54,930 nt of DNA from Parcubacteria group bacterium GW2011_GWA2_43_11 (GCA_000998805.1 LCFC01000006.1:24999-79928), one strand, 5' to 3'; counted from the first letter of the stretch, positions 9,426-53,158 are shown. A program made the numbers and translations. Notes: generated by a model not told the origin, from the sequence alone.

Positions 9426-9861
9426 AAATAAGCTAATATCCATAATTATCGCTAAATTTAAGTTATGTTTATACCAAAGTGGGTAATTATCTTATTTGTT
9501 ATCTGTTAGAACTGGGGTCAGACCCCACACAAAATTTCAAAAATGTGGTCTATTTTTTAAAGCATCTGATTATAAATGTATGTTTCGCGTGCTGTATATA
9601 GGTATCTTTCCTTACAACGTAAATATGCCTTTGCGATTTGTTTACGACTACTGTCGTTCACAAATAACGCAAAGCTTTTCGATGTCGGGTATCGACGATA
9701 CGTCATTAAGTAAATTCGTCACAAGCTCCTCATTTACTAAGTGCGTTTCGTCTAGGCTCAGCTGTGCTTAAGCACATGCTTCCGCCTTTCGATACCCCAC
9801 GTAACGTGCATTGGCACGTTACTCCATCTCCACCAAAAAACCGCCCTCAAAGGCGGTGTTT

Positions 9862-10268
9862 TGGTGGAGATGGCGGGTATCGAACCCGCGTTCAAAAAGA
9901 ATTCTATGAAATGCTCTACAAGCGTAGATTGTTTTTTTCCGCCAGCTGGCGGATCTTGGAAGGGTAGGGCGAAACAAACAAAATCTAACCTTCCTACCAT
10001 ACTTAGTCTCGAGTGGTACGGTGATGGTAACCATACTTCCTCATAGCCGAGTAGTATTACGCCCGTATCAGTATATCGGCATCAACCAAATCGGACGCCG
10101 CTTGGGTAACTATGTGTTACGCAAATGCGGGAGCGAATTGTATCGGTGATACAACAGCCCGTGCAGTTTTGTTTGCACGTATTGGTTTTCCAGTCAGTTT
10201 AACGACTTACTTGGTGGTCGGCTTGCACATCTCAAAGAACAATCCTTTTGTCTAAGCCAGTCATCCCC
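9862..10268 (-). ncRNA. ssrA: tmRNA
   Basis: 5' GGGGATGACTGGCTTAGAC and 3' GCGGGTTCGATACCCGCCATCTCCACCA (tRNA-like domain). Tag ORF from resume codon GCA at 10176 to TAA at 10119-10117 encodes ANKTARAVVSPIQFAPAFA. Terminator ccgcc-ctcaaa-ggcgg lies at 9841-9856. Confidence 0.85.
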
Positions 10269-10306
10269 GTGTTGGGTTCGATGCTTCAAACACAGAACGG
10301 GAACTT

Positions 10307-10588
10307 CTATTTATATTTTATCAAACGCTCCAAGTCTCTCTTGGTATCACGTTCCTTGATACTTTCACGCTTGTCTGCCTTCTTTTTACCTCGAACAAGA
10401 GCGAAATTTAGCTTGAGCAACCTCTTATTAGTATACAACGAAACAGGGACAAGTGTCAATCCTCTGGAAGCCTCTAAACCTATGAGTTTATTGAGTTCTT
10501 TGCGAGTGAGAAGGAGTCTTCGTGGACGTTCAGCATCATAATCCTTGCCAGCATTTGTGGGTTGGTAAGGTTCTACAGATGAACCCAC
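10307..10588 (-). CDS. smpB: SmpB, C-terminal two thirds only (N-terminal region degraded)
   Basis: RRLLLTRKELNKL...LVPVSLY...GKKKADKRESIKERD matches SmpB. In-frame TAA at 10678-10676. No ATG, GTG or TTG start upstream of the GTG at 10588. Confidence 0.7.
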   Translation of the reverse strand: MGSSVEPYQPTNAGKDYDAERPRRLLLTRKELNKLIGLEASRGLTLVPVSLYTNKRLLKLNFALVRGKKKADKRESIKERDTKRDLERLIKYK

Positions 10589-10868
10589 AAGATATGCCTC
10601 ACCTCCTCGAATAATAACGTGGGCTCCTTCCAGCTTTCCTCTTCCGGCATAGCTTTTAGCATAGCATACCTGTTTTTACTTATATACCAGGTAAACTTTT
10701 TTGTTGCTGTGTTATGTGAATAACTGGTACACTATCGGTACTATGATCCCGTTAGAGACGAGAACTGTGATACTGTATAATTAAAGTAAGTTACGTGAAT
10801 ATATATGATGAAATTCAAAAACATTATCAATATAACCGACGGTCACTCTGTGACCTGTCTCTAACGGG

Positions 10869-11876
10869 ATGATACCAACTATACAAAAGCTTGCGAGCAT
10901 CATGATGACTCCCGGTAAGGGCATTCTCGCTGCCGATGAGAGTGAAAGCACCATGAGCAAACGCCTCACGTCTATCGGTGTATTAGATAATACTGAAAAT
11001 GGCAGGAGGTTTCGAGATGTTCTCTTTACTGCACCGGATGTAGAGGAATATTTAAGTGGGGTGATACTCTTTGATTCCACGATTCGACAGTCGAGCAACT
11101 CTGGCGAGCCATTTGCTCGACTCCTTGAAAGGCTAGGTATTATGCCGGGAATCAAGGTAGACAAAGGTCTGCAACCAGTTCCCAACTTTGCGCAGGAAGA
11201 AATAAGTCATGGGCTTGATGGGCTTCGTGAACGACTTGATGAGTACTATCAACTTGGAGCACGTTTTACGAAATGGCGGTCAGTGATACGCATCACTGAC
11301 GATACTCCCAGTGACACGATACTACGGGCAAACGCGCAAGTACTGGCATACTATGCCGCTATAGTGCAGGAACGTCATATGGTACCGATGGTCGAGCCAG
11401 AGGTGCTCTTTGAGGGGACGCACACTCTGGAGCGGTCTGGCGAAGTACTCCACAAGACACTCAAGTACGTCTTTGAAGAGCTTCAAGCGTTTCGTGTCTC
11501 ACTTTCCGGATTGGTATTGAAGACAAGTATGGCACTCCCTGGAAGTGAGTCAGGAATAGTACTCAATCCTATGCTTATTGCGCGAGAGACAGTAAAGGTC
11601 CTCAAAGATGTTGTGCCATTTTCTACTGCAGGTATCGTCTTTCTTTCGGGTGGACAAACTCCGATTCAAGCTACAGAGAACCTCAACGCCATCGCGCTTT
11701 TTGATAACCTTCCTTGGCCAGTAACCTTTTCTTACTCCCGTGCACTTGAAGAGCCAGTACTTGAAGCATGGAAAGGGCTTGATGCGAATACCGTTGCGGC
11801 ACAGAAAGCTCTCTTGCACAGACTTTCGTTAAATGTCGCTGCTCGTAAGGGTGTGTATAAAAAAGAAATGGAATAG
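10869..11876 (+). CDS. fba: Class I fructose-bisphosphate aldolase
   Basis: PGKGILAADES motif and about 335 aa length, typical of class I FBA. Confidence 0.85.
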   Translation: MIPTIQKLASIMMTPGKGILAADESESTMSKRLTSIGVLDNTENGRRFRDVLFTAPDVEEYLSGVILFDSTIRQSSNSGEPFARLLERLGIMPGIKVDKGLQPVPNFAQEEISHGLDGLRERLDEYYQLGARFTKWRSVIRITDDTPSDTILRANAQVLAYYAAIVQERHMVPMVEPEVLFEGTHTLERSGEVLHKTLKYVFEELQAFRVSLSGLVLKTSMALPGSESGIVLNPMLIARETVKVLKDVVPFSTAGIVFLSGGQTPIQATENLNAIALFDNLPWPVTFSYSRALEEPVLEAWKGLDANTVAAQKALLHRLSLNVAARKGVYKKEME

Positions 11877-11878
11877 GG

Positions 11879-12012
11879 TAGGACTTATTTAAATGGCGCA
11901 CCATAGGGGTACTTCATTTTTGTAAAGCCTTCGGCTAACAAAAATGAAGTACCCCTATGGTGACTATAAAAATGGGAATGTCCTTGTGGCACATCCATTT
12001 GAATAAGTCCTA
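11879..12012. repeat. Nested palindromic element, TAGGACTTA family, copy 1
   Basis: Outer arms taggacttatttaaatgg / ccatttgaataagtccta. Inner perfect 23-bp arms caccataggggtacttcattttt / aaaaatgaagtacccctatggtg. Begins 2 nt after the fba stop. Confidence 0.85.
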
Positions 12013-12145
12013 TTGGTCGGGTTACCGAACACTCTAAAATATACTGTAGTAGTGCCCAAGTACATGACCAGCATTTGAAGCTTGAAGATGTTATAATCAA
12101 CGTTATTGAAGAATACAACAAAAAATTATTAGATTACGTACTACT

Positions 12146-13372
12146 ATGAATAAAATCCACATATCATTTTTTCTAAGCGTTCTTGCGGTTTGTTTTGGTC
12201 TGTTTATGCCTGATGTCACACACGCTATGGTGATACGTGGAGGTGAGACATTTGAGCTCGAAGCGTATACCACCCTGGAGGACGATTTGTACGTAGCTGG
12301 GAAAACAGTTTCTTTGGCAGGGACTACCACCGGGGACGTTTTTGCTGTTGGCTCAGAAGTAGTATATTCCGGCGTGTCTACCGAAGACATGCTTTTTGCA
12401 GGGGGAAAGGTGAATGTTACAGGTCTTGTCCAAGGTGACCTACGTGTACTTGGCGGAGAGATTACACTCAGTGGGCACGTCACAGAAGATGTTGTACTTA
12501 TTGGCGGAACGATTCAAATCACAGAAGGAGCAGTTATCGACGGTGATGTGTTGGTGGTAGGAGAGTATGTATCTAGCAAGGGAACCATAGGTGGTGTTGT
12601 GGAAGCGTATACACGAGTTGCGGAGTTTACTGGAGGTAGTGTAGGAGGTTCTCTACGAGCTTACACACGAGAATCTCTGTCAGTCACAGGGACAACTCGC
12701 ATTGAGGGAAGTCTTGAATACAAAGCACCTCATGAAGCGTTTGTATCTGAGACTGCGTCTATTGAAGGAGAGCGTCTCTACACCCCGCTTCAGACTTCGC
12801 GTGCAGACAAGGGAAAAGTAGATCTAGTAAAACTTATCGAGCTGATACTCATTACTGTGGCTGCTGCGGTGACTTTGGTGTTTTTCTTCCCAGCGCATAC
12901 GCGTGCTATGACAGATATAGCGCTTAGAAAAGGCAACCTTATCAATTTTGTAAAAGGCTTTTTGATTTTGATTTTTGTCCCGATTATTTCCCTACTCGTT
13001 ATGGTGACTATGGTAGGAATCGTTCCAGGACTCATTATGCTCTTCGTGTATTTTGTTCTTGTGTGTGTAGCCCTAGCGCTTGCACCGGTACTTGCAGGGA
13101 TATTTCTTGCTCGATCGTTTAAAAAAACGAGTGAAGAGCTTTCCCTAGCTTGGGTATCATTTGGAGCTATCGCCTTTACCTTGATTTCAATTTTGCCTTT
13201 TATTGGATTTGCTGTTCGTCTACTCGTTTTCCTCCTCGCGTTTTATGCAGTAACTGTATTACTCTACGAACATGTTTGGGTACAGCGAAAAAAACAACAG
13301 ATTGAAGATGAAAAACCACATCATGACACAAAAGAAACCAGTGAGTCGGAAACGACCACAACCACTCCGTAA
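12146..13372 (+). CDS. Membrane protein with N-terminal Gly/Val-rich repeat domain and C-terminal multi-TM domain
   Basis: Signal/TM segment, repeated G.V.GDV-type motifs (bactofilin-like look), then several hydrophobic helices. Confidence 0.55.
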   Translation: MNKIHISFFLSVLAVCFGLFMPDVTHAMVIRGGETFELEAYTTLEDDLYVAGKTVSLAGTTTGDVFAVGSEVVYSGVSTEDMLFAGGKVNVTGLVQGDLRVLGGEITLSGHVTEDVVLIGGTIQITEGAVIDGDVLVVGEYVSSKGTIGGVVEAYTRVAEFTGGSVGGSLRAYTRESLSVTGTTRIEGSLEYKAPHEAFVSETASIEGERLYTPLQTSRADKGKVDLVKLIELILITVAAAVTLVFFFPAHTRAMTDIALRKGNLINFVKGFLILIFVPIISLLVMVTMVGIVPGLIMLFVYFVLVCVALALAPVLAGIFLARSFKKTSEELSLAWVSFGAIAFTLISILPFIGFAVRLLVFLLAFYAVTVLLYEHVWVQRKKQQIEDEKPHHDTKETSESETTTTTP

Positions 13373-14045
13373 GTCTATCTCACAAGATTCTGTACTTTTT
13401 CTTGAGCGAAAAGCTCGACTCTTGAAACTCAACGCGAAGCTTAAAAAACTATTTCCAAAAGCAGAAATGGCTCTTCGATGGAACACAAATTGGGAGCTCC
13501 TTGTGGCTGTGGAGTTGTCGGCACAATGTACGGATAAAAAAGTAAATGAAGTAACTGAGGTACTCTTTAAAAAATATACAACATTGGAAGCGTACACCAC
13601 CGTAAAGCAAAAAGACTTTGAAAAAGATATTAAATCAACTGGATTTTATAAAAGCAAAGCTAAAAATATTTTAGCTGCTGCAAAACGGGTTACGGAGATT
13701 TATGGCGGAGAGATACCCAAAACCATGAAAGAAATTCTTACTATCCCAGGAGTTGCCAGAAAGACGGCAAATGTAGTACTTGGCAATGCGTATGGTGTCG
13801 TAGAGGGTATAGCAGTAGACACACATGTGCGCCGTTTTGCAACACGGTTTGATCTCTCAGATTCTAAAGACCCTGTAAAAATCGAACAAGATTTAATGGA
13901 GTTAATCCCTAAAAAGGATTGGTTCTCCTTTACCTATCGAGTGATTGAGTATGGACGCACCATAGCACCAGCGCGCGTGTACGATACAAACAAAGACCCG
14001 CTTGTTGCAGTGTACCCTCCTGCAGGTAAAATGTTTCGGGTGTAG
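13323..14045 (+). CDS. nth: Endonuclease III-family DNA glycosylase lacking the C-terminal Cys cluster
   Basis: LVAVELSAQCTD, IPGVARKTANVVL (catalytic Lys) and VDTHVRRF (Asp) are present. The tail has no Cx6Cx2Cx5C. Start is ambiguous (13272, 13308 or 13323) and overlaps the previous gene. Confidence 0.75.
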   Translation: MTQKKPVSRKRPQPLRKSISQDSVLFLERKARLLKLNAKLKKLFPKAEMALRWNTNWELLVAVELSAQCTDKKVNEVTEVLFKKYTTLEAYTTVKQKDFEKDIKSTGFYKSKAKNILAAAKRVTEIYGGEIPKTMKEILTIPGVARKTANVVLGNAYGVVEGIAVDTHVRRFATRFDLSDSKDPVKIEQDLMELIPKKDWFSFTYRVIEYGRTIAPARVYDTNKDPLVAVYPPAGKMFRV

Positions 14046-14086
14046 GTGCATAAGGTATGGGAATGCATATGTGTATGAGGGACGAC

Positions 14087-14116
14087 GCCCATACCCATAC
14101 CCATACCCATACGCAT
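14087..14116 (+). repeat. Hexanucleotide microsatellite (CCCATA)x4 plus one degenerate unit
   Basis: cccatacccatacccatacccatacgcata lies directly upstream of the probable mutY-like start. Confidence 0.8.
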
Positions 14117-14941: not shown

Positions 14942-15030
14942 CTTGCTGTTGTTAATATCACGAGTATGTGGTAAAACTTCTTCCAGAAAGTAAACCTTAG
15001 GAAAACGTTAACTCTACAGCGGAGATTACC

Positions 15031-15240
15031 ATGAGTAATTATGTAGGCATAAAAAAAGTGGAAGAAGTTTCAAATATAGCAAGAGTGAACGAGCTACTCA
15101 CATTAAACTGGGAAATCCTCCACATTTGCACAGTCAGTTTTACTTATGAAAGTACGCAAGAAGATGGACTCCCAAGAATCAAAGAATCTCCAGTTTTAAA
15201 AATTGCCACGAGGACACATTATGTTATGGGTAAAAGATAA
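15031..15240 (+). CDS. Hypothetical small protein
   Basis: ggaga RBS 6 nt before the ATG. Terminator ctcgcagtg...cactgcgag at about 15266-15302. Confidence 0.4.
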   Translation: MSNYVGIKKVEEVSNIARVNELLTLNWEILHICTVSFTYESTQEDGLPRIKESPVLKIATRTHYVMGKR

Positions 15241-15378
15241 CCGTACCTCTTGGTTATTGTTTCTTTTTTCAAAACTCGCAGTGATTGCTAGATCCCACTG
15301 CGAGTTTTTTGATTTTACTTTTACTCCGCCACGGGGGGTAAGCTCGCTACTCCTACCCTTCGAGTTCCTCAGGGCAAG

Positions 15379-15473
15379 CCCGCACACACACAAAGACCTT
15401 GTACGTAAAACACCACCTCGTAAGGTGGTATTTTACGTACGCGCATTGCGCAAGGTCTTTGTATGTGTGCGGG
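15379..15473. repeat. Nested palindrome
   Basis: Outer arms cccgcacacacacaaagacctt / aaggtctttgtatgtgtgcggg enclose the hairpins gtacgtaaaacaccacc..ggtggtattttacgtac and gcgcattgcgc. Confidence 0.8.
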
Positions 15474-15622
15474 CAAGCTCAAGGCTCACGGCTCATTACT
15501 CTCGGCTCTTCAGCTATTCAAAAAATCCCTTGAGAAATACCCACACATTGTCTGTATCAATATACCATGTATATATCGAATCGAATCGTTCACTTGGTTC
15601 AACGATAGGATGTACTCTCACA

Positions 15623-17233: not shown

Positions 17234-17342
17234 ACGATTGTATAAAGTGTTCAGTACACATCAACGGATATTTATATATGAACCGTCAGTACTCGTTTTT
17301 TTCAACGGAAAACAAAACACACGTAGTTAAGCCTAACTCGTT

Positions 17343-23584: not shown

Positions 23585-23669
23585 GGAGGCGTCGCATAGT
23601 GGTCTAGTGCACCGTCTTGGAAAGACGGCAAGGTGAAAGCCTTCGAGGGTTCAAATCCCTCCGCCTCCG
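23585..23669 (+). tRNA. tRNA-Ser (GGA)
   Basis: Acceptor GGAGGCG/CGCCTCC, anticodon loop TTGGAAA, long variable arm, T-loop GGTTCAAATCC. No encoded CCA. Confidence 0.85.
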
Positions 23670-23811
23670 CACTGACAACCTGTTAGTTTTGTTGACCCAT
23701 ATGGCCTAATGAGGTAGTGCGACCCACAAAGCTTCAGATTGTGTAAAAGGACCGGGATGTCCCCGATGTTCTCAATCTCAATCTGGGGGAACCGGCAGTC
23801 CGACATTTCCG

Positions 23812-40268: not shown

Positions 40269-40407
40269 AAAGTTGAAAGTTTAATGTTAAAAGAAGAAAC
40301 CGCTAGCTGGCGGAGAATTAGAAAAAAGGAAATGTTCTAGTGCAAGTCCTCTTCTCGGCCAAAACAATAATCGCGAAATGCTTGTCGCATTCCGCTCTTT
40401 TGTTTTG

Positions 40408-40550
40408 TGCCGAGGAGAGGAATCTTTCTCTCTACGAGAGCAGTATAGGTTTCGCGTCTCACTTTCTCCTCGACAAGCTCGGAGTCGTTGCGACATGCTC
40501 AACCTTTTCAAGTCTTCTCACGCGAGCGGTATTGACCGCTCGCTCTCGGC
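40408..40550 (-). repeat. Foldback unit with tRNA-Leu(TAG)-derived termini
   Basis: Minus-sense 5' is GCCGAG, a hairpin (agcgagcgg..ccgctcgcg), then TGAGAAGACTTGAA. The 3' end GATTCCTCTCCTCGGCA copies the tRNA 3' end. Confidence 0.7.
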
Positions 40551-40588
40551 ACAAATAAAAAGAACCTTTGAAAGGTTCTTTTTATTTG

Positions 40589-40669
40589 TGCCGAGGAGAG
40601 GACTTGAACCTCCATGGGTCACCCCGCTTGCTCCTAAGGCAAGTGCGTCTACCATTTCGCCACCTCGGC
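40589..40669 (-). tRNA. tRNA-Leu (TAG)
   Basis: GCCGAGGTGGCGAAATGGTAGACGC, anticodon loop CTTAGGA, long variable arm, GGTTCAAGTCC. No encoded CCA. Confidence 0.85.
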
Positions 40670-40912
40670 ATAACGAAAGTATTCTACACTACTTTATAAA
40701 TAATTGCATTTACCCGCACACTAACAACACATGATAAATGTGTATATGTTATGTAGTAGAATGTTAGTGTGCGGGTTTACTCACACACTGTCCTAACCAT
40801 TATTTTGCTATTATATATAAACACCACTATTGTAATCTAAGTATATGTTGTGCAATTTTATGGTGAGTGTGCGGGTTTACATTATCCATAATTTGTTCTA
40901 AACTATCGCAAT

Positions 40913-40985
40913 CCGCCCATAGCTCAGCTGGTAGAGCAGTCGCCTCTTAAGCGAACGGTCGTAGGTCCGAGTCCTACTGGGCGGA
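40913..40985 (+). tRNA. tRNA-Lys (CTT)
   Basis: Acceptor CCGCCCA/TGGGCGG (C1-G72), D arm GCTCAGCTGGTAGAGC, anticodon loop CTCTTAA. Confidence 0.8.
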
Positions 40986-41323
40986 CTTGAGTAAAATATA
41001 ATAACCACACTTTTTGTGTGGTTATTATATTTTAGAACGCAAACTATTTTGCGTTCGTACTCAAGTCCGAAGCGGAAACATGTTCCATAGGAGCAGTTGA
41101 GCTGGGGTAGCGAGCACTTAGTTTTTGAGGAGTCTGTGACGAAAAAACTTAGTGACTCGTGACGACAGCGTAAAAAAATCAGTGCCTGTGCACTGATTTT
41201 AACATTTCAAAACGGGGAACTCAGTACATGGTACTCAATTATAGACAAATTTATTTTAGTAATTAAAATTACGGCTTAATGTAAGTAAATTTTAATACTC
41301 CAAATTATCTCAATCAAAAATGC

Positions 41324-41351
41324 TTGACAATTATCTAGGATAGTGTATACT
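41324..41351 (+). promoter_or_regulatory. Sigma70-like promoter of an orphan transcription unit
   Basis: TTGACA at 41324-41329, 16-nt spacer, TATACT at 41346-41351. Confidence 0.55.
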
Positions 41352-41689
41352 ACTTGACAGTTAGAACATTTTTATAGAGACATATTCACTCTGGGCTTTT
41401 TACAAAGCACACTGCAAATATGGGTGTTTCGGAGGCAGTATATGCTAACGGAAAACCAGAAACTTATCTTATGATAAGGAATACTGTTTCATTGTGCAGT
41501 AGAAGTTCGAAGCTTATTTTTTTGAAGTATCTATTTTTTGTAGGACCACCAATAGGCATGTGGAACAGAATTATTTTACGTAGTACGTGGTACGATGTAA
41601 AGTGGAATTACCTCATCGAAGAAGTTTCTCCGAACACCTGTGTGTCAGAATATCGACACATACTTACTTACTTAGCACACCAACCCCCC

Positions 41690-41729
41690 AGTAGCCGAGT
41701 CTGTATTTTGGACCGGCTACTTTATTTTT
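41690..41729 (+). terminator. Intrinsic terminator
   Basis: gtagccg...cggctac followed by tttattttt. A second perfect palindrome gatacctatttccgcg/cgcggaaataggtatc lies at 41761-41796. Confidence 0.65.
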
Positions 41730-41883
41730 ATATATATCATAAATTTAAAGAAAACTAAAAGATACCTATTTCCGCGACCGCGGAAATAGGTATCTTCTTT
41801 GTTTGGATATGTTGAAAACTATGTATGTAGGAATATATAAACTTTGATTCTTCCGCATTTTCTAGTATTCTTTGTTTGTGCAT

Positions 41884-41967
41884 GCCCGGGTGGTGAAATT
41901 GGTAGACACGCAAGACTTAAAATTTTGTGGCCGTAAGGCCATGCGGGTTCGATTCCCGCCCCGGGCA
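41884..41967 (+). tRNA. tRNA-Leu (TAA)
   Basis: GCCCGGGTGGTGAAATTGGTAGACAC, anticodon loop CTTAAAA, variable arm, GGTTCGATTCC. No encoded CCA. Confidence 0.85.
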
Positions 41968-41986
41968 CAAGAGCGAAGCGAATTGG

Positions 41987-42142
41987 GTTCGGGGAGTACT
42001 GTGCCTATGCACAGTACGTCGGGAATCGAAAGGCGCAGGCATATCGCCTTGCGATACCGAGCATAGACGAAACGCACTTAGGATTTGAGGAGTTTACGAC
42101 GAATAATACTTAGTGACGTATCGTCGATTCCCGCCCCGGGCA
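41987..42142 (+). repeat. Foldback unit U1 with tRNA-Leu(TAA)-derived termini
   Basis: 5' is GTTCGGG-GAG, a hairpin (tactgtgc-ctat-gcacagta), then CGTCGGGAATCGAAA. The 3' end is TCGATTCCCGCCCCGGGCA. The ends pair 7/7 with two G.U pairs. Confidence 0.75.
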
Positions 42143-42172
42143 CAGTTTAACGAACATAGTGAGGAAAACTGT

Positions 42173-42305
42173 GTTCGGGGAGAACGCAACCAATGTTGCG
42201 TTCGTCGGGAATCGAAAAGATTGATTATATTTTCGAAGAGCTTGCTCAGAGAAAATTTGAAATCTGTACCGTTCATGTAATGAAAGATTCCTGCCCTGGG
42301 CACCA
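42173..42305 (+). repeat. Foldback unit U2 with tRNA-Leu(TAA)-derived termini, ending in CCA
   Basis: 5' is GTTCGGG-GAG, a hairpin (aacgcaa..ttgcgtt), then CGTCGGGAATCGAAA. The 3' end is GATTCCTGCCCTGGGCACCA. Confidence 0.7.
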
Positions 42306-42447
42306 GAAAGGAAAAAACAAGCGGTTTTGGTTCGCTTTGCTTTGATCGGCGACTAATTTGTTTTCAATTTTAGGAGAAGATAATTTATTAATCCAAAAGA
42401 GCCAATAAACGTCTATAAACAAGGCTATTTTATTTGCCAGAGCGAGC

Positions 42448-42476
42448 TTGACAGGAGTATTTTAATATGCTATATT
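42448..42476 (+). promoter_or_regulatory. Sigma70-like promoter of the GC-rich orphan gene
   Basis: TTGACA at 42448-42453, 17-nt spacer, TATATT at 42471-42476. Confidence 0.6.
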
Positions 42477-42620
42477 TTTGCCCTAATAGGGATTATTTAG
42501 CTCTTTTACAGCAGAGATAGACGCTTTTACTCGATAGCAACGCATTCTGTATCTACCACTAGGTATGTAATGCGTTGCTAGAATCGAGTAAACAAACACA
42601 CCTAACAAAAGGAGAATATT

Positions 42621-43241
42621 GTGGAAACCGAACGAACATTTAACATTCTGGAAACGTGCTGTTTTCCAAAGGGATGTCTCATCCCTGAGGATCTTCAGCC
42701 TTACTTGGCGACAGTCCTCATCCCGCAGCTCGAAGCGGCGGGCATAAAAACAGCCGAGTGGACTCGCGGTGCGCTGATGTTGGAAGAGCCCCACCTGTCG
42801 AAGGTCAGGGGTATCGTCTGCAGACAGTGCAACATCCGCGAGTGTCCGTTTAATCCGCACTTCAAGCCGACCGATGGTCTCAGCGACCTGATGGACGGAC
42901 AGTACGCGGATCGCATCGAGAGAGGTGACCAGCTTCTCGCACAGCTTCTTCCTGAAGCGAAGAAGACGGAACTCGAGCATAAAGGAATCAAGGTCATCGC
43001 GTTTCAGATGCCCTCGAGGAAGAACCCCAAGCTCGTGTTCTCGTTCACTCGGAACGACAAGACGCGTCGGGTGAGCTGTGAAGTCGGCAAGCGCCGTCTC
43101 TTGACGGACGAGGGCGAGGAAACTCTGCTCTCGCTCGAACAACTTGATCAGAAGATCGGGGAAGCGATTCGCGGGTTGACCATCTACACCGCTCTCCTTA
43201 CTCTCGATCAAACGATCGGTCTGCAAATCAGGCAAAACTGA
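42621..43241 (+). CDS. Hypothetical protein (206 aa), GC-rich foreign-looking gene
   Basis: aaggag RBS 6 nt before the GTG. Terminator at 43258-43303. Contains CRQCNIRECPFNPH. No family recognised. Confidence 0.6.
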   Translation: METERTFNILETCCFPKGCLIPEDLQPYLATVLIPQLEAAGIKTAEWTRGALMLEEPHLSKVRGIVCRQCNIRECPFNPHFKPTDGLSDLMDGQYADRIERGDQLLAQLLPEAKKTELEHKGIKVIAFQMPSRKNPKLVFSFTRNDKTRRVSCEVGKRRLLTDEGEETLLSLEQLDQKIGEAIRGLTIYTALLTLDQTIGLQIRQN

Positions 43242-43257
43242 TTTCGGCTCGGCCAAC

Positions 43258-43303
43258 GGCCTCGACTGCGGCATCCAATGCTGTGGTCGAGGCCTTTCTT
43301 TTT
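43258..43303 (+). terminator. Intrinsic terminator
   Basis: ggcctcgac...gtcgaggcc followed by tttcttttt. Confidence 0.75.
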
Positions 43304-43567
43304 GGTTAATTTTTTGATAAATTAAATTCATAATTGAATCCCGTCAAAAAAAACTTAAATTGTCAGCGGTGCGGCTCCGCCACCTTTCCGAATTTTCGCG
43401 GGGGGATTTCTTTGCCCCGAAGGTGGCGAAATGTGTTCGGACTAATTCAAGAATAGTGCACAGTTTAACAAGCGCAGTGAGGAAAACTGTGCTCGGGGAG
43501 AACACAAGCATTGTGCATTGGCACATTGCTTGCGTTCTCAAATTACTCGCATTGTGAGTTAAATTTG

Positions 43568-43798
43568 AGGCCTGGGCGGGGATCGTCCCAGAATTGCGGA
43601 TATTTTTATTGTGATGAATCACTAAAAAATATCTCGCATTCTCGGACGGCCACTCGCTGTCTTTCGTATCCTCAAGACATGCTCCGTGGCTTGACCAATT
43701 TTTCTTATGATCCGCCAGCGGGCGAAGAGTTAGAAAAATGGAAATAACCTCGTGTCACGATTCCGCACGTACTGTGCGTAGGTACAGTACTCCAAACC
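43568..43798 (-). repeat. Foldback unit A with tRNA-Cys-derived termini
   Basis: Minus-sense 5' is GGTTTGG-AG, a hairpin (tactgtac-ctac-gcacagta), then CGTGCGGAATCG. The 3' end is GATCCCCGCCCAGGCCT. The ends pair 7/7 with two G.U pairs. Carries the X and W hairpin modules. Confidence 0.75.
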
Positions 43799-43837
43799 TC
43801 AAATCAAAATGCACCTAGTGAGGTGCATTTTGATTTG

Positions 43838-43994
43838 AGGCCTGGGCGGGATCGTCCCAGAATCGCGGATATTTTGCTCCAAGTATTCGCAAAATATACT
43901 CGCGTTCTTGGACGGCCACTCACTGTTGCTTTGCAACAGGCTCCGTGGCTTCGATTCCCGACGCAAGCAAAGCAGTTTGCTTGGCTCCCAGGCA
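43838..43994 (-). repeat. Foldback unit B with tRNA-Cys-derived termini
   Basis: Minus-sense 5' is TGCCTGG-GAG, a hairpin (caagcaaa-ctgc-tttgcttg), then CGTCGGGAATCGAA. The 3' end is GATCCCGCCCAGGCCT. Carries the X and W modules. Confidence 0.75.
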
Positions 43995-44024
43995 TGAAAA
44001 AACCGCAAAGCGGTATTTTCAGTG

Positions 44025-44096
44025 AGGCCTGGGCGGGAATCGAACCCGCGCATGTCGGTTTTGCAGACCGAAGCGTTACCTCTTCGCCACCAGGCC
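44025..44096 (-). tRNA. tRNA-Cys (GCA)
   Basis: GGCCTGGTGGCGAAGAGGTAACGC, anticodon loop CTGCAAA, GGTTCGATTCC. Terminator accgc-ttt-gcggt lies downstream at about 43997-44019. Confidence 0.85.
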
Positions 44097-44237
44097 AATA
44101 TTCTATTGTAAATTAAGTAAGGGTTCGATTCCATCGATCCTTACAGGATCAGTACACCTTGTCGCTATTCTTCCTCGTGCTCTCGAAGAATATCTGGCAA
44201 GGTCTTGCGGAGCTCCATGTATTCGCTCCTCACCCCC

Positions 44238-44283
44238 ACACGTCGGCTTTTAGACCGAAGCGTTACCTCTTCGCCACCAGGCC
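44238..44283 (-). pseudogene. Duplicate of the tRNA-Cys 5' half (no T arm)
   Basis: agaccgaagcgttacctcttcgccaccaggccaatat is identical to the real gene plus 5 nt of upstream flank. The anticodon region has changed to CTAAAAG. Confidence 0.7.
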
Positions 44284-44467
44284 AATATGTAATACTTTCC
44301 ACACTTAACTGTTCGGTATTGCTAATTTCATGGATTGCTTCGCTTGCGAGCTCGCAATGACGAGCCATTACTTGAAGCAGGTATATTCATTTTCTCAGCA
44401 CTGAAGCGTTACTTCATCCCGCCATGGGACGGGACAAGCTTCACCACTGAGCCATTCCGACAGTGTA

Positions 44468-47688: not shown

Positions 47689-47715
47689 TATTTTTTAGGT
47701 TATATGGTATAATAT

Positions 47716-50418: not shown

Positions 50419-50490
50419 TAAACAGCCGGTCATCACAACATGATCGGCTGTTTCGTTAATTAACACGTTTAACAAACCCTCAGGCTAGTA

Positions 50491-51312
50491 TCATTGCTCA
50501 GCCAATTTGAGGACGGCTTCAATTTCTTTATCTGTAAGGTTTCCTGAAGATACATAATCGATAACCTTCATATCCTTCAAATCCTTTAGAGTTCCCATTT
50601 TTTTAATTCCGCTTAAGAATAGTAATTTCACAGCAGGGTCTATGTCTGGATTTAAATTTACTTTGATAAACAAAGTTCCCATATTGGTCTTAGCAACTTC
50701 AGCATGCTGAGTTGCAATGTTTTCTTTAGAATACATTGTTTTTGTTTGTAAGTTTGCACCTTCAGCATCGTTTGTGTGTCCAAGTACAGCCATACCTCCA
50801 ATAGTAATAGCTACCCACAGGCCTACAGTTTTTGCAAGCTTAGAACCTTGCATTTTTCTGGTCAGGGACATCAGAAATCCTTTAACTTCTCCCTCATCAC
50901 CATCTTGTAAAACTTCAGCAAGTTTTGGATTCTCTTCCTCAAGTAGTACAAGAGTGTTGGGTATATCAAGCGTTTCGTTGCACACTTCAGTTAGAGCAAT
51001 ATCAGCGATTTCCGTATTGACCCCCAATGCACTTTCAATAGCATCTAACTGCGCTTCCCACTCAAGCAGTTCTTTTATTTTCTCCTCTCTCTCCTCAGGA
51101 CTTGCATTCTCAACCGCAAGGTTAAGTTCATGCAAAGTTCTTTCTTTTCGAGTAATATCAGAAGAGTTATTTTCAGAGGCAGTTTCTGTGGGATGAATAG
51201 TATACTTTTCTAGTAAGTCAGCATAATCAGTTCCTTCTGTAGGCTTTTGAACAGTGGTATTTTCAGCTTGCGGAAGAGCATTTTCGTTTCTTGAGAACAT
51301 TTTTTCATTCAT
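50491..51312 (-). CDS. Hypothetical acidic protein with one central TM segment
   Basis: Long ORF. TM is GLWVAITIGGMAVLG. Shares hairpin aaacagccg..cggctgttt with clpB as a terminator. Confidence 0.5.
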   Translation of the reverse strand: MNEKMFSRNENALPQAENTTVQKPTEGTDYADLLEKYTIHPTETASENNSSDITRKERTLHELNLAVENASPEEREEKIKELLEWEAQLDAIESALGVNTEIADIALTEVCNETLDIPNTLVLLEEENPKLAEVLQDGDEGEVKGFLMSLTRKMQGSKLAKTVGLWVAITIGGMAVLGHTNDAEGANLQTKTMYSKENIATQHAEVAKTNMGTLFIKVNLNPDIDPAVKLLFLSGIKKMGTLKDLKDMKVIDYVSSGNLTDKEIEAVLKLAEQ

Positions 51313-51515
51313 ATGGGTTTACGTTTAATTCATGTTTACTATACAACAAGACAAGATCTCGGCAAATCTAAACGTAGGATTACCTTATGTAGAAAGACGA
51401 CGATACGGTACAAAACGTAGAAGCATAAAATAAACAGGTTATAACAAAACATCCGTCAGTCTGTGAGGACTGACGGATGTCGGCAGGAAAGAATTTTGGC
51501 AAGAGGTTGTAAAAA

Positions 51516-51833
51516 TTATCGTGTGGTTTTCTCAACAGTCCCATGTGGGGGGGTATGTCTTTCGCCACAGTGCGGACAGGCTGAATGGGGGTTTCTACTG
51601 TCAGCAACAGAAATGTTGGTTCTCAAATTTCTTCCCGTAGGAACCCCTTCGATGTCGTATTTTTGGTAGCCGGTCTTGATGCCACCAATAACCTTCAGAT
51701 CATCATCGGTCACACGTTCCGTCAAATCCACAACAACATGCTGTTGTGTGATAAAAATCCGCATGACCTTGTCCTTACATCTGCCAATCATGTTAATCAA
51801 CTGCCCTATCAAATGTCGTTTCTGGGTTTTCAT
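51516..51833 (-). CDS. Hypothetical protein (105 aa) with a CPHCGERH motif
   Basis: aaggag RBS before the ATG. Hairpin catccgtcagtc..gactgacggatg downstream. Confidence 0.55.
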   Translation of the reverse strand: MKTQKRHLIGQLINMIGRCKDKVMRIFITQQHVVVDLTERVTDDDLKVIGGIKTGYQKYDIEGVPTGRNLRTNISVADSRNPHSACPHCGERHTPPHGTVEKTTR

Positions 51834-51993
51834 CCTTATTCTCCTTGAAGGTACTGCTTTGCAACGTTTAACAACGGCGAATGTTCAAATAGTATTTAAA
51901 CATGTAGATACTATTTGTCAACAACGAATCACGTCTTAAATAGGGAACAGCCGGTTGTTAGTACCGGCTGTGCGAAAAGAACGGATTGCTACC

Positions 51994-52266
51994 TCATTCC
52001 TCGAACTTTGAGAAAAATACGGAAGCCACATTTTGTTCCTCTCTGTGTTCGTCAAGAAAGTGCAAATATGTCGCCCCCTTATGGTAGGAAATACCGAGGA
52101 GTGTAAAAGGACCTTGTCCGTAATCGTTTTGAAATATCTGAAGCATAATGCGAGAACTTACAAGTTCCGAATTTGGGTTCTTCCAGCTGATTTTTTCTCC
52201 CACAAGTACGCGTTTGATTGTTCCGTCTTCTTGTGTGAGTTCTGCCTTTTGTTCTATATGTGTCAC
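51994..52266 (-). CDS. Hypothetical protein (90 aa)
   Basis: aaggagg RBS 6 nt before the GTG. Hairpin acagccgg..ccggctgt downstream. Confidence 0.5.
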   Translation of the reverse strand: MTHIEQKAELTQEDGTIKRVLVGEKISWKNPNSELVSSRIMLQIFQNDYGQGPFTLLGISYHKGATYLHFLDEHREEQNVASVFFSKFEE

Positions 52267-52693
52267 GACACACCTCCTTTGGTAGGTTACATATTGATTT
52301 ATGAATACTCTAATATATTTCGTCTATTTGTCAAGGATTACGGATTATATGTGGCAAATTATGTCTTGTATAACAAAAAGAGCCTACAGAATAGACTCTT
52401 TTTGGTTTGTGTGGGTGGGCTTTGTCCCAGAGTTGCGGGAGAGATTTGGTCCAAGTCACTAAGTATTTTCTACGTACTACGTACTTGAAAAAACTAAGTA
52501 CTTGTATGCGCCGGTCGGGCTTTGTCCCAGAATCGTGGCTTTTTTATTTCGTACTTCATAAAAAAACTCACGTTCTTGGACGGCTTGGGAGGGATTTGCC
52601 CTCGAGTCACTAAATATTTTTTCTCGCTTCACTCGAAAAATATTAAGTGCTCGTCGGCACGGCTCAGCGCTCTCTCGTGCTTTGGCACGCGCG

Positions 52694-52800
52694 CTTCCGC
52701 CCGAGAATTGCGGATATGTTGCTCCAAGTATTCGCAACATATACTCGCATTCTTGGACGGCCACTCACTGTTGCTTCGCAACATGTTCCGTGGCTTGACC
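52694..52800 (-). repeat. X-W hairpin module, copy C
   Basis: Collinear with 43855-43950 (copy B) over about 95 nt. Substitutions in the stems are paired. Confidence 0.8.
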
Positions 52801-52876
52801 TAATTTTCAAGGAGAGTAGCGACTATGAAAATGGAAATACTCCTGTGGTGCAAATCCCTCCCGCAAGGTGTGCAAA

Positions 52877-53025
52877 CGCTGGGAGGGCTTTGGTCCAAGT
52901 CACTAAATATTTTGCTTCAAGTTTTCGCAAAATATTAAGTGCTTGCGACCCCGCCTCGCAGCCCCAATCTCCATTTCATTACGATTGGGGACCCGCTGCT
53001 CCGGCTTTCAAATCCCTCCCGGCGC
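52877..53025 (-). repeat. Foldback unit with tRNA-Tyr-derived termini
   Basis: Minus-sense 5' is GCGCCGGGAGGGATTTGAA. The 3' end is CAAAGCCCTCCCAGCGT, against CAAATCCCTCCCGGCGCA in the tRNA 3' end. Confidence 0.65.
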
Positions 53026-53074
53026 GACAAACAGCAACAGCCTGAAAGTTTTCACTTTCAGGCTGGCTGATTTG

Positions 53075-53158
53075 TGCGCCGGGAGGGATTTGAACCCCCG
53101 TAGGCATATAGCCGCTTGGTTTACAGCCAAGTGCGATTGACCACTCCGCCACCGACGC
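53075..53158 (-). tRNA. tRNA-Tyr (GTA)
   Basis: GCGTCGGTGGCGGAGTGGTCAATCGC, anticodon loop CTGTAAA, long variable arm, GGTTCAAATCC. Terminator cagcctgaaagt..actttcaggctg lies downstream. Confidence 0.85.

What the first reader, a model, noticed from the sequence alone, without database searches (positions are those of the whole stretch)
9675..53094. tRNA-like genes are followed by foldback units whose two ends copy the tRNA's own acceptor and T-arm strands
The tmRNA and four of the six tRNAs (Leu-TAG, Leu-TAA, Cys, Tyr) share one downstream pattern. Read in the sense of the tRNA, the trailer carries a sequence equal to the reverse complement of the tRNA 3' end. This has three parts: an acceptor-strand mimic, usually an inserted 20-25-nt hairpin exactly at the acceptor/T-stem junction, and an anti-T-arm of the form xCGGGAATCGAA.

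Some 60-130 nt further on sits a same-sense copy of the tRNA 3' end (T-loop, T-stem and acceptor strand). That copy closes a 130-230-nt foldback.

I mapped six closed units:
- 40408-40550 (Leu-TAG)
- 41987-42142 and 42173-42305 (Leu-TAA)
- 43568-43798 and 43838-43994 (Cys)
- 52877-53025 (Tyr)

A degenerate seventh lies at about 9675-9835, behind the tmRNA.

The terminal 7-bp acceptor helices are kept in the tRNA sense through G.U pairs:
- GTTCGGG with CCCGGGC
- GGTTTGG with CCAGGCC
- GTTCGGG with CCTGGGC

The same positions would be C.A mismatches on the other strand. Unit 42173-42305 even ends in an encoded CCA, although the tRNA genes do not encode one.

The interiors share modules between units attached to different tRNAs. 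One example is the hairpin TACTGTGC..GCACAGTA, present at both 41997-42016 and 43771-43790.

I know of no described element class with this architecture. Candidate explanations are tRNA-like ncRNAs released from tRNA transcripts by RNase P and RNase Z, MITE-like elements with tRNA-mimicking terminal inverted repeats, or scars of serial integration at tRNA 3' ends.
Basis: partly seen in the sequence, partly recalled or inferred. Interest (0 to 1): 0.85.

Follow-up and report, generated by a model that had tools for sequence, protein, structure and literature searches.

The report
Hairpin insertion modules behind tRNA genes
Behind most tRNA genes and the tmRNA gene of this small candidate-phyla bacterium sit short non-coding modules, each flanked by a reversed and a direct copy of that tRNA's own 3' end; the same modules occur next to at least 16 different tRNAs across the Patescibacteria, and they look like an undescribed kind of small DNA insertion element rather than tRNA-like RNAs.

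Summary

**What is there.** The pattern follows the tmRNA, Leu-TAG, Leu-TAA, Cys and Tyr genes, with a variant behind Lys. The order is: tRNA 3' end (X), a terminator-like hairpin, an inverted copy (X'), a conserved structured core, then a direct copy of X. X' often carries a 25-nt hairpin.

**Distribution.** A model of one core hairpin found 38 copies in the window and 25 other loci, all from Patescibacteria. At least 33 lie 73-560 nt downstream of a tRNA or tmRNA on the same strand. The ends match the local tRNA each time.

- The inverted repeat starts at T54 and runs through the trailer and the terminator hairpin.
- X' therefore pairs best with the tRNA's own end, not with the downstream copy.
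- G.T pairs do not outnumber A.C mismatches, so the G.U argument fails.

**Mobility.** Units are absent from the compact tRNA cluster of more distant relatives, reshuffled between near-identical strains, and sometimes carry cargo genes. No recombinase lies nearby.

**Best reading (about 0.5).** These are non-autonomous DNA modules inserted at the T-loop. The enzyme and mechanism are unknown. Rfam and the literature search returned nothing similar.

The parts
9862..10268 (-). tmRNA gene; its last 22 nt from T54 (X0) form the left arm of the palindrome
9836..9861 (-). terminator-like spacer hairpin behind the tmRNA (ACCGCC..GGCGGT followed by a T-run)
9788..9835 (-). X' of the tmRNA unit: anti-acceptor 9824-9835, 25-nt hairpin 9799-9823, anti-T 9788-9798
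9695..9787 (-). type-A core: hairpin hpA plus the P-helix/M1 hairpin (R1 match 9690-9760, 75.5 bits)
9681..9694 (-). decayed direct copy of the tmRNA 3' end (cgatacccgacatc)
40588..40669 (-). tRNA-Leu(TAG)
40552..40587 (-). spacer A, a terminator-like hairpin; 40545-40595 is a 51-nt palindrome, 98% identical between arms
40507..40551 (-). X' of the Leu-TAG unit, with its 25-nt hairpin
40426..40506 (-). Leu-TAG-type core, homologous to L001 9463-9591 and L005 15680-15755
40407..40425 (-). direct copy of the Leu-TAG 3' end (2 mismatches over its last 17 nt)
40342..40406 (-). spacer B hairpin (40362-40406) and a second inverted copy X'a (40342-40361); this is a truncated further unit. Spacers A and B are in swapped order in sister genome L001
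40913..40986 (+). tRNA-Lys(CTT)
40987..41168 (+). variant unit behind Lys: terminator hairpin, 25-nt hairpin (41036-41058), inverted copy of the trailer plus the last 5 nt of the tRNA, then a core with M1 (R1 match 41098-41168, 74.3 bits). There is no downstream direct copy
41884..41968 (+). tRNA-Leu(TAA)
41969..42144 (+). Leu-TAA unit 1: spacer 41969-41986, X' 41987-42030 (hairpin 41995-42019), type-A core 42031-42123 (R1 match 42058-42129, 84.2 bits), perfect direct copy 42124-42144
42145..42305 (+). Leu-TAA unit 2: spacer 42145-42172, X' 42173-42216 (hairpin 42181-42205), type-D core 42217-42283, direct copy 42284-42305 (2 mismatches, ends in CCA)
42448..43294 (+). cargo: promoter-like site (42448-42476), orphan ORF of 206 aa (42621-43241; G+C above the rest of the window; no Pfam, PHROG or PADLOC match) and terminator (43258-43294). 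It lies between direct repeats of the spacer-X' segment
43458..43514 (+). second copy (86% identical) of spacer 2 plus X' of the Leu-TAA array, with no tRNA attached
44024..44096 (-). tRNA-Cys(GCA)
43836..44023 (-). Cys unit 1: terminator spacer 43994-44023, X' 43950-43993 with hairpin, type-B core 43858-43949, direct copy 43836-43857
43566..43835 (-). Cys unit 2: perfect 19-bp spacer hairpin 43799-43835, X' 43753-43798 with hairpin, core 43587-43752, direct copy 43566-43586
44232..44288 (-). duplicate of the 5' half of tRNA-Cys (90% identical), with a type-C/D module and an anti-T-arm remnant between it and the gene
53074..53158 (-). tRNA-Tyr(GTA)
52872..53073 (-). Tyr unit 1: spacer hairpin 53028-53073, X' 53008-53027 (no inserted hairpin; 53007-53094 is an 87% palindrome over a 92-column alignment), type-A core (R1 match 52887-52958), decayed direct copy 52872-52889
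52395..52871 (-). rest of the Tyr array: partial X', a type-B core (52698-52808, 91% identical over 52698-52796 to Cys unit 1) and two more M1 cores (R1 matches 52594-52666 and 52443-52517). Each is followed by a decayed T-loop/T-stem copy. A closing hairpin with flanking T-run, seen by eye, lies near 52400

Best explanation
**What they are.** The units are DNA-level insertions, not tRNA-like RNAs. They belong to a family of small, non-coding, hairpin-rich modules found across the Patescibacteria. The modules accumulate by recombination at the T-loop (about T54-C56) of tRNA and tmRNA genes.

**What each event leaves behind**, read in the tRNA sense:
1. An intact tRNA 3' end (X) followed by a terminator-like hairpin.
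2. An inverted copy of that end and its trailer (X'). Together with X it forms a long palindrome that stops at T54.
3. A conserved core. This is an optional 25-nt hairpin 11-13 nt before the core start, then either hairpin hpA plus the P/M1 hairpin, or one of the other core types (B, C/D).
4. The displaced older copy of the tRNA end.

**How arrays arise.** Repeated events and recombination among the repeated ends build arrays, reorder units, flip tRNA genes and trap cargo genes.

**Shown here:** the anatomy, the same-strand tRNA linkage, ends that match the local tRNA, conserved hairpins in the cores, differences between strains, and absence from compact relatives.

**Inferred:**
- The cores are the mobile part.
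- They are moved in trans by an enzyme not encoded next to them.
- The palindrome is either copied from the target at insertion or acts as a folded single-strand recombination site.
For: **Linkage to tRNAs.** 33 of 38 core copies have a tRNA or tmRNA upstream on the same strand. First units start 73-124 nt away. The other five are at locus or contig edges, next to a mis-called or variant tmRNA, or (L011) have no recognisable tRNA upstream.

**One core, many targets.** The same core sits at 16 targets: Leu-taa, Leu-tag, Leu-gag, Lys, Cys, Tyr, Ser, Gly (two), Ala, Pro, Arg (two), Val (two) and tmRNA. X' and X match the local gene in most units and are decayed in the rest.

**Fixed boundary.** The palindrome begins within a base or two of T54 (offset -20 to -22) in 17 of the 25 unit-bearing tRNAs examined. 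The unit-free tRNA-Ser(gga) shows none.

**Pairing partner.** X' pairs with the upstream end in 7 of 7 folds.

**No selection on the end pairing.** G.T is about equal to A.C.

**Frequent direct copies.** 22 of 49 tRNAs have a direct copy of their last 17 nt within 3 kb, many with no mismatch. I estimate about 0.04 per tRNA by chance.

**Gain and rearrangement.**
- The rbfA-to-pilin tRNA cluster spans about 540-640 nt and has no units in L036 and L037. It is also compact and unit-free in L035.
- It spans 2.5 kb in the 95%-identical sister L001 and 4.2 kb in the window.
- The Cys units are absent from L001, L005 and L006.
- Spacer order, tRNA orientation and cargo ORFs differ between sisters.

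**Cargo cassettes.** In L010, ORFs that end in an M1 hairpin plus a copy of X follow a tmRNA.

**Transcription signals.** Terminator-like hairpins with T-runs separate the tRNA from the unit.

**Loop types.** Hairpin loops are GNA triloops closed by C-G (11 of 44 triloops). There is one GNRA tetraloop and no UNCG tetraloop, as in stable DNA mini-hairpins.

**Not a known RNA.** Rfam has no match.
Against: - No integrase, transposase, HUH enzyme or reverse transcriptase was found in the window or beside about 20 units. The one exception is an unrelated IS4-type transposase in L029.
- No circular or empty-site intermediate has been seen.
- I have no demonstrated mechanism for making an inverted copy that matches each new tRNA.
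- The 25-nt hairpin sits exactly where the D and anticodon arms leave a tRNA's acceptor/T helix. That looks like purposeful tRNA mimicry.
- The core hairpins covary strongly and are about 90% identical between Saccharibacteria and Parcubacteria. A functional RNA would show the same.
- A core follows tRNA-Tyr in three related genomes (window, L005, L037), which could reflect retention for a function.
- No copy was found in viral contigs.
Confidence: 0.5

Rival explanations
1. The units are functional RNAs made from the tRNA transcript. One version is a tRNA-like ncRNA closed by an acceptor-like helix and released by RNase P and RNase Z. The other is a cis-acting trailer whose X' pairs with the tRNA 3' end to control processing, stability or termination.
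For: - The units are always on the tRNA's strand and at a fixed distance from it.
- The 25-nt hairpin sits at the tRNA 7/49 junction position and covaries.
- The P/M1 hairpin covaries, and has an invariant T.T mismatch and a bulged A.
- Within the core there are more G.T than A.C cells in the tRNA sense, 22 against 6, although the cells are not independent.
- The core is highly conserved across distant lineages.
- A core follows tRNA-Tyr in the window, L005 and L037.
Against: - Terminator-like hairpins with T-runs lie between the tRNA and the unit, and no promoter precedes the unit.
- X' pairs better with the tRNA's own end, which would compete with tRNA folding.
- The end helices decay neutrally, with G.T about equal to A.C.
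- Downstream copies are often decayed while X' still matches the tRNA end well.
- Presence, order and number differ between strains whose IF-2 proteins are 95% identical, and units are absent from compact relatives.
- Loops are GNA triloops, not GNRA or UNCG.
- There is no tRNA, mascRNA or Y-RNA model match.
Confidence: 0.2
2. The units are ordinary scars of conventional tyrosine-integrase elements (prophages or islands) that integrated at tRNA genes and were later deleted. On this view the conserved cores are the arm regions of one widespread attP.
For: - A regenerated tRNA plus a displaced 3' fragment is the classical signature of integration at a tRNA gene (Islander, PMC4383910).
- T-loop crossover is known, for example in phage Ms6 (PMC1762012).
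- Tandem accretion at a tmRNA gene is known in Dehalococcoides (PMC3146451).
- Longer displaced fragments that start in the D-loop occur in L005, L006 and L034.
- Phage-like and defence-like genes lie downstream of the window's tmRNA.
Against: - No integrase was found in the window or beside any unit examined.
- Dozens of independent deletions would each have had to leave the same 100-130-nt core at the same distance from the tRNA.
- One attP family would not be expected to serve 16 different tRNAs.
- Conventional attP sites do not carry an inverted copy of the tRNA end and trailer.
- No core was found in 2.9 million viral contigs.
Confidence: 0.15
3. The palindromes are by-products of replication. 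On this view, template switching at the terminator hairpin (the quasipalindrome 'correction' mechanism) extends the hairpin into the tRNA end. The cores would then be unrelated neighbours.
For: - The arms are near-perfect and centred on the terminator loop.
- Their extent varies: they reach T54 in most units but only 2-4 nt into the tRNA in four.
- The T-loop sequence TTCGAA is itself palindromic, which would offer microhomology for a switch.
Against: - It does not explain the conserved cores, their fixed spacing, the 25-nt hairpin interrupting X' at a fixed 11-13 nt from the core, or the direct downstream copies.
- tRNAs without a core lack the palindrome.
Confidence: 0.1

Closest known systems
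Genomic islands and prophages that integrate into tRNA or tmRNA genes through tyrosine integrases (Islander definition, PMC4383910; T-loop attB of phage Ms6, PMC1762012; tandem ssrA islands of Dehalococcoides, PMC3146451)
   Same: The tRNA stays intact. A displaced copy of its 3' part marks the far end of the insert. The boundary lies in the T-loop. Serial events build arrays, and some inserts carry cargo genes.
   Different: There is no integrase. Most units are only 130-290 bp and non-coding. An inverted copy of the tRNA end and trailer is always present. One conserved core serves at least 16 different tRNAs.
Recombination sites used as folded single strands: integron attC sites (PMC4792948) and the CTX phage attP(+) hairpin (PMC3442271)
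   Same: Both are imperfect palindromes of variable sequence with extra-helical features. They alternate with cassettes in arrays. They have a fixed strand and orientation. They use hairpins of the kind stable in DNA.
   Different: The outer ends are the T-loop (TTCGAA-like), not the attC R boxes or a dif site. The stem is a copy of a tRNA gene end. No IntI, attI or Xer link has been shown. Single-strand use is only inferred.
MITEs and palindrome-associated elements of the IS200/IS605 family
   Same: They are small, non-coding, multi-copy and hairpin-rich, with no transposase of their own.
   Different: The 'terminal inverted repeats' here are copies of the local target, not of the element. 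There is no recognisable target-site duplication. No autonomous partner was found. Insertion is restricted to tRNA ends.
E. coli tyrT operon repeats that give rtT RNA (recalled from my own knowledge of the 1991 description of rtT RNA and of Rfam family RF00391)
   Same: Repeats directly behind a tRNA gene each contain the last roughly 19 nt of that tRNA.
   Different: The rtT model gave no match. The tyrT repeats are simple tandem direct repeats at one locus. They have no inverted copy and no core shared with other tRNAs.

Membership tests
tRNA / tRNA-like RNA (Rfam RF00005, mascRNA, bacterial Y-RNA tRNA-like domain) | Scores at or above the family covariance-model threshold, or is called by a tRNA finder | tested here: not met
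   ARAGORN calls only the seven genes. Rfam at E up to 5 gives only chance miRNA-type hairpin matches inside the units.
tRNA-like RNA | Closing acceptor-like helix maintained by selection, through compensatory or wobble changes | tested here: not met
   G.T about 10 against A.C about 11 in the X/X' helices of 20 units. Downstream copies are often decayed. The minimum-energy fold prefers the upstream partner.
tRNA-targeting integrative element (genomic island / prophage) | Regenerated tRNA plus a displaced direct copy of its 3' part | tested here: met
tRNA-targeting integrative element (genomic island / prophage) | Integrase gene inside the element | tested here: not met
   No recombinase domain among 30 window ORFs or among 30 ORFs beside units in other loci.
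MITE | Element-specific terminal inverted repeats shared by all copies and by an autonomous transposon, plus a target-site duplication | tested here: not met
   The inverted ends change with the neighbouring tRNA. No duplication other than the tRNA end was seen. No autonomous partner turned up in the genome, metagenome or viral scans.
Integron cassette / attC | R''/R' boxes (RYYYAAC / GTTRRRY) at the ends of the palindrome, and an IntI-attI platform | tested here: not met
   The palindrome ends are TTCRA/TYGAA, taken from the T-loop. No integrase lies upstream of the arrays.
IS200/IS605-type palindrome-associated element | Y1 HUH transposase in the genome and insertion 3' of a fixed 4-5-nt target | tested here: inconclusive
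   No Y1 transposase was found in the DNA held here. Whole genomes could not be scanned. The boundary at T54-C56 is compatible with a fixed short target.
rtT / tyrT repeats | Match to Rfam rtT; tandem direct repeats of a trailer that contains the tRNA 3' end | tested here: not met
   No Rfam match. Tandem Repeats Finder found no arrays.
Xer/dif-dependent integrated element (CTX type) | dif-like XerC/XerD site at the junctions | not tested
   No dif model was available. The junction sequences are T-loop-derived.

The most novel reading that the evidence does not exclude
A previously unknown insertion mechanism, or a cassette system resembling an integron, that is specific to the Patescibacteria. 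In this reading a conserved non-coding core of about 100 nt colonises any tRNA or tmRNA gene at the T-loop. Either the ~20-45 nt from T54 through the trailer are copied in reverse at insertion by fold-back synthesis at the terminator hairpin, or the resulting palindrome serves as a folded single-strand attachment site that rebuilds the tRNA end. The real tRNA T-loop would act as the array's entry site. Empty and gene-carrying cassettes would then accrete behind tRNAs, driven by a trans-acting enzyme yet to be found.
Probability: 0.2. Interest if true: 0.92.

Novelty: categorically new. Interest (0 to 1): 0.8.

Why it matters
Patescibacteria have tiny genomes and are usually thought to carry few mobile elements. 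In this window, six of seven tRNA-like genes carry these modules. They account for most of the size difference of a conserved tRNA cluster between relatives: about 0.6 kb against 4.2 kb. They also coincide with flipped tRNA genes and with strain-specific orphan genes.

If the modules are mobile, they are a main driver of genome change in this large group. They would also point to an unknown recombination enzyme that recognises the universal T-loop, which could in principle be aimed at any tRNA gene.

If instead they are RNAs, they would be a new, widespread class of tRNA-linked RNA.

There is a practical consequence too. They probably cause contig breaks and confuse tRNA and island annotation in genomes assembled from metagenomes.

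Tried and rejected
- **Known RNA families.** Rfam at gathering and at permissive thresholds found no family for the units.
- **Phage origin.** Two viral-contig scans gave nothing. The one hit, L033, is a chance match inside a long ORF.
- **Neighbouring recombinase.** Six Pfam batches found none. The IS4-type transposase in L029 looks coincidental.
- **Cargo ORFs as defence or phage genes.** ORF206, ORF112 and the cargo ORFs of L001, L005 and L022 have no significant PHROG or PADLOC match. The best was a marginal Cas3d hit (E 0.0007) for one L005 ORF.
- **Primer-binding-site idea.** I considered X' as the complement of mature tRNA-CCA, as in retroviruses. I rejected it because X' continues into the genomic trailer and lacks TGG, except at the tmRNA, whose gene encodes CCA.
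- **Decayed tandem tRNA duplicate.** I rejected this because X' is the reverse complement of asymmetric T-loops (AATCGAA for TTCGATT) and includes the anti-trailer.
- **Hammerhead or group I type ribozyme.** No core motifs and no Rfam match.
- **Tandem Repeats Finder.** It found no arrays because the copies differ by indels. The repeat finder documents the L005 array.
- **First automatic count of X/X' mismatches.** It mis-aligned around the inserted hairpin. I redid it with the two halves placed separately. A few rows (L013, L021, L022) remain imperfect, but dropping them does not change the result.
- **Exact-protein look-up of the window's aldolase**, meant to reach sister tmRNA loci: not on record.

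Full report
**1. What is in the window**

ARAGORN and Rfam agree on seven genes:
- tmRNA, 9862-10268, minus strand
- tRNA-Ser(gga), 23585-23670, plus strand
- tRNA-Leu(tag), 40588-40669, minus strand
- tRNA-Lys(ctt), 40913-40986, plus strand
- tRNA-Leu(taa), 41884-41968, plus strand
- tRNA-Cys(gca), 44024-44096, minus strand
- tRNA-Tyr(gta), 53074-53158, minus strand

The gene content points to a Patescibacteria genome. There are T4SS-pilin genes and G+C is about 0.42. The nearest relative found is Parcubacteria bacterium GW2011_GWD2_42_14, whose IF-2 is 95% identical.

Read in the sense of each tRNA, the same order of parts follows the tmRNA, Leu-TAG, Leu-TAA, Cys and Tyr genes:
1. The tRNA's own 3' end, counted from the T-loop. 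I call this X.
2. A spacer that is a terminator-like hairpin.
3. An inverted copy of X, which I call X'. In most units a 25-nt hairpin splits it exactly between the anti-acceptor and anti-T-stem parts.
4. A structured interior.
5. A direct copy of X.

**2.

- The interiors fall into a few conserved core types.
  - Type A has a hairpin (hpA) followed by a long hairpin. The long hairpin is made of a covarying basal helix (P) and a module GCACTTA-stem-loop-stem-TTAGTGAC (M1).
  - M1 has four exact copies in the window against none expected, plus two variants.
  - Type B is shared by the Cys units and the Tyr trailer, at 91% identity.
  - Type C/D carries a small hairpin with a TGTA loop.
- tRNA-Lys carries a variant unit.
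- The Tyr trailer is an array of about 670 nt that reaches about 52395.
- Leu-TAG has a further, truncated unit at 40342-40406.
- A left end with no tRNA sits at 43458-43514.
- The inverted repeat does not stop at the tRNA's last base. It runs on through the trailer and both arms of the spacer hairpin.

**3. The same thing elsewhere**

A pattern for M1 found 12 stretches among 185,579 species genomes. All are Patescibacteria: Saccharibacteria, Parcubacteria/Paceibacterota and unclassified members. It found 13 stretches in metagenome contigs and nothing real in viral contigs.

A covariance model of P plus M1 gave 38 matches in the window and 25 loci.
- 33 of them have a tRNA or tmRNA upstream on the same strand.
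- First units start 73-124 nt after the gene.
- The other five lie at locus or contig edges, next to a mis-called or variant tmRNA, or (L011) have no recognisable tRNA upstream.

The partner genes are Leu(taa, tag, gag), Lys, Cys, Tyr, Ser(gct), Gly(tcc, gcc), Ala, Pro, Arg(tct, tcg), Val(gac, tac) and tmRNA. In most units X' and X are copies of the local gene's end; in a few they are decayed. The core is nearly the same throughout. For example, it is about 90% identical over 68 nt between a Saccharibacteria Leu(gag) unit and the window's Leu(taa) unit.

The core hairpins are under structural constraint:
- P plus M1 is 84.9% paired.
- 13 of its 20 pairs show changes on both sides.
- It has an invariant T.T mismatch and a bulged A.

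The 25-nt hairpin (AG, 9-bp stem, CAAT or CTGC loop, CGT) is 97.6% paired, with compensatory changes at 8 of 9 pairs. It always lies 11-13 nt before the core. This holds even in the Lys-type variants, where those 11-13 nt are complementary to the trailer rather than to the T-arm.

**4. Which pairing matters**

In 17 of the 25 unit-bearing tRNAs examined, the inverted repeat begins within a base or two of T54 (offset -20 to -22 from the gene end). It then covers the T-loop, the 3' strand of the T-stem, the 3' acceptor strand, the trailer and the spacer hairpin. In four cases it reaches only 2-4 nt into the tRNA. The unit-free tRNA-Ser(gga) shows nothing comparable.

When both partners are offered, the minimum-energy fold pairs X' with the upstream end, the tRNA's own, in 7 of 7 window units. 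The 25-nt hairpin then forms a side branch.

In several units X' matches the tRNA end well while the downstream copy has decayed. Examples are the tmRNA unit in the window, L016 and L025; in L001 X' itself is also imperfect.

**5. RNA or DNA?**

Across 20 units the X/X' helices hold about 10 G.T and about 11 A.C mismatches. In other words, X' accumulates C-to-T and G-to-A changes equally. That is what neutral AT-biased decay of DNA gives, and it is not what selection on an RNA helix gives.

Inside the core there are more G.T (22) than A.C (6) cells in the tRNA sense. These cells are not independent.

Other points bearing on the question:
- Terminator-like hairpins with T-runs lie between the gene and the unit at the tmRNA, Cys and Tyr loci. 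No promoter-like site precedes a unit on its strand.
- Loops of perfect hairpins in 10 kb of unit sequence are as often triloops (44) as tetraloops (45).
- 16 of the triloops are G-N-A, and 11 of those are closed by C-G. One GNRA tetraloop and no UNCG tetraloop was seen.
- From my own knowledge, C-GNA-G triloops such as GCGAAGC are the classic hyper-stable DNA mini-hairpins, whereas structured RNAs favour GNRA and UNCG.

None of this is proof, but it leans towards structures that matter in DNA.

**6. Evidence for gain, loss and rearrangement**

The cluster Cys/Leu-taa/Lys/Leu-tag lies between rbfA and a row of pilin genes in all relatives.

| Genome | IF-2 identity to window | State of the cluster |
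|---|---|---|
| L035, L036, L037 | 65-68% | tRNAs 28-146 nt apart. Span is 540-640 nt in L036 and L037; L035 also has a PAP2 gene between rbfA and the cluster. No direct copy of a tRNA end (one weak ≤4-mismatch match in L035 is the neighbouring Leu-taa end) and no core. All four tRNAs are on one strand, except Cys in L036 |
| L006, L034 | 73-74% | Short units behind Lys; displaced tRNA fragments starting in the D-loop behind Leu-tag |
| L005 | 80% | Three copies, 259-270 nt apart, of a 5'-truncated tRNA-Leu(taa) plus unit |
| L001 | 95% | Span 2.5 kb |
| Window | (query) | Span 4.2 kb |

Between the window and L001 there are further differences:
- the Cys units are present only in the window;
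- the two Leu-TAG spacers are in swapped order;
- the Leu-TAA unit has exchanged its spacer;
- individual tRNA blocks are inverted;
- the cargo ORFs differ: an orphan 206-aa ORF in the window, a DUF6804 gene in L001, and further ORFs in L022 and L005.

Behind a Saccharibacteria tmRNA (L010) there are small ORFs with their own promoter and terminator. Each is followed by an M1 hairpin and a decayed copy of the tmRNA end. That looks like gene cassettes that use the same right end.

Across 49 tRNA genes in the loci held, 22 have a direct copy of their last 17 nt within 3 kb downstream, many with no mismatch. I estimate about 0.04 per gene by chance. This sample is enriched by the way the loci were found.

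**7. What I think it is**

The anatomy fits DNA-level insertion at the T-loop. The gene keeps, or is given, an intact 3' end with a terminator. An older copy of that end is pushed downstream. Repeated events stack up. This is the logic of islands that target tRNA genes (PMC4383910; T-loop crossover, PMC1762012; tandem accretion at a tmRNA gene, PMC3146451).

What does not fit any known kind:
- The inserts are mostly 130-290 bp and non-coding.
- No recombinase gene lies in the window or beside about 20 other copies.
- An inverted copy of the target end is always made or carried.
- One core family serves at least 16 different targets.

Because retargeting is so frequent, I think the palindrome is more likely produced from the target at insertion than carried by separate tRNA-specific lineages. 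One possible route is fold-back copying from the terminator hairpin back to T54.

An alternative is that X-spacer-X', with the 25-nt hairpin as an extra-helical mark, acts as a folded single-strand attachment site. That would be comparable to integron attC sites (PMC4792948) or the CTX phage hairpin (PMC3442271).

Both ideas are inference. I saw no intermediate and no enzyme.

My probabilities are:
- about 0.5 for 'non-autonomous DNA modules inserted at the T-loop';
- 0.2 for a functional RNA;
- 0.15 for plain scars of conventional integrase elements;
- 0.1 for replication template-switching alone.

**8. Novelty**

Rfam has nothing. Five full-text searches found no description of these elements. 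Every family I tested fails on a defining feature (see the membership table).

I rate the architecture as categorically new, with one caveat. If an ordinary tyrosine integrase turns out to move these modules, they would be better described as an extreme miniature variant of tRNA-targeting integrative elements.

The interest is high for two reasons. The family is widespread in a major bacterial group, and it visibly reshapes otherwise compact genomes. It also implies either an unknown T-loop-directed recombination mechanism or an unknown class of tRNA-linked RNA.

Noticed in passing
window 934-1123 and 5204-5393: A 190-nt direct repeat, 97% identical, covers the 3' end of the adenylosuccinate synthetase gene. 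It brackets a 4.3-kb insert that carries a DUF3800 gene (a strong match to the candidate defence family PDC-M04A), a 163-aa ORF and a 593-aa SWIM-finger protein. It looks like an island integrated into the end of a protein gene, again with no integrase.
   Followed up: partly
window 1185-1352 and 7004-7170; 3176-3233 and 8760-8817: More direct repeats (79-87% identical) lie inside the variable region between purA and the tmRNA. They suggest nested or serial insertions.
   Followed up: no
window 8613-9425 (+): A Bro-N domain protein with a very strong match to a phage protein family (phrog_8036, E 2e-96) lies directly downstream of the tmRNA unit.
   Followed up: partly
window 44232-44288 (-) and 44100-44231: The 5' half of tRNA-Cys, up to the anticodon loop, is duplicated about 135 nt upstream of the gene. 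Between the copy and the gene lie a TGTA-loop hairpin module and an anti-T-arm remnant. The same module occurs in the Leu-TAG array of L001 (9597-9668).
   Followed up: partly
window 40588-44096 compared with L001, L006, L034-L037: The order and orientation of the four clustered tRNA genes differ between relatives. Individual tRNA blocks appear to be flipped in place, and the tRNA-Cys of the 95%-identical sister is only 78% identical to the window's.
   Followed up: partly
window 42621-43241 (+): An orphan 206-aa ORF with its own promoter-like site and terminator. The 2-kb stretch that holds it has the highest G+C in the window (0.477). It has no match in Pfam, PHROGs or PADLOC. It is bracketed by 86%-identical copies of the spacer-X' segment.
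   Followed up: partly
L010 2700-4120 (-): Behind a Saccharibacteria tmRNA lie two small ORFs, each with a promoter and a terminator. Each is followed by an M1-type hairpin and a decayed copy of the tmRNA T-loop and T-stem. This looks like an array of gene cassettes.
   Followed up: partly
L029 886-2100 (-): An IS4-type DDE transposase gene (DDE_Tnp_1 plus DUF4372) sits between two unit-bearing tRNAs, Arg-tct and Val-tac. It is probably an unrelated insertion.
   Followed up: no
L006 6553-6680 and L034 8852-8960: tRNA-Leu(tag) is followed by a hairpin and then a second copy of the tRNA running from the D-loop to the 3' end. This is a displaced fragment much longer than in the window's units.
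   Followed up: partly
window 11899-11962, 15378-15474, 41723-41837: Other long imperfect palindromes that are not next to tRNAs. The one at 41757-41798 is a 17-19-bp bidirectional terminator-like hairpin upstream of tRNA-Leu(taa).
   Followed up: no
L001-L003 contig starts; L021, L024, L031 (contigs of 1.1-1.3 kb): Several assemblies break at or next to unit arrays, for example just short of the tRNA-Tyr array in the sister genome. This suggests that the repeats fragment genomes assembled from metagenomes.
   Followed up: no
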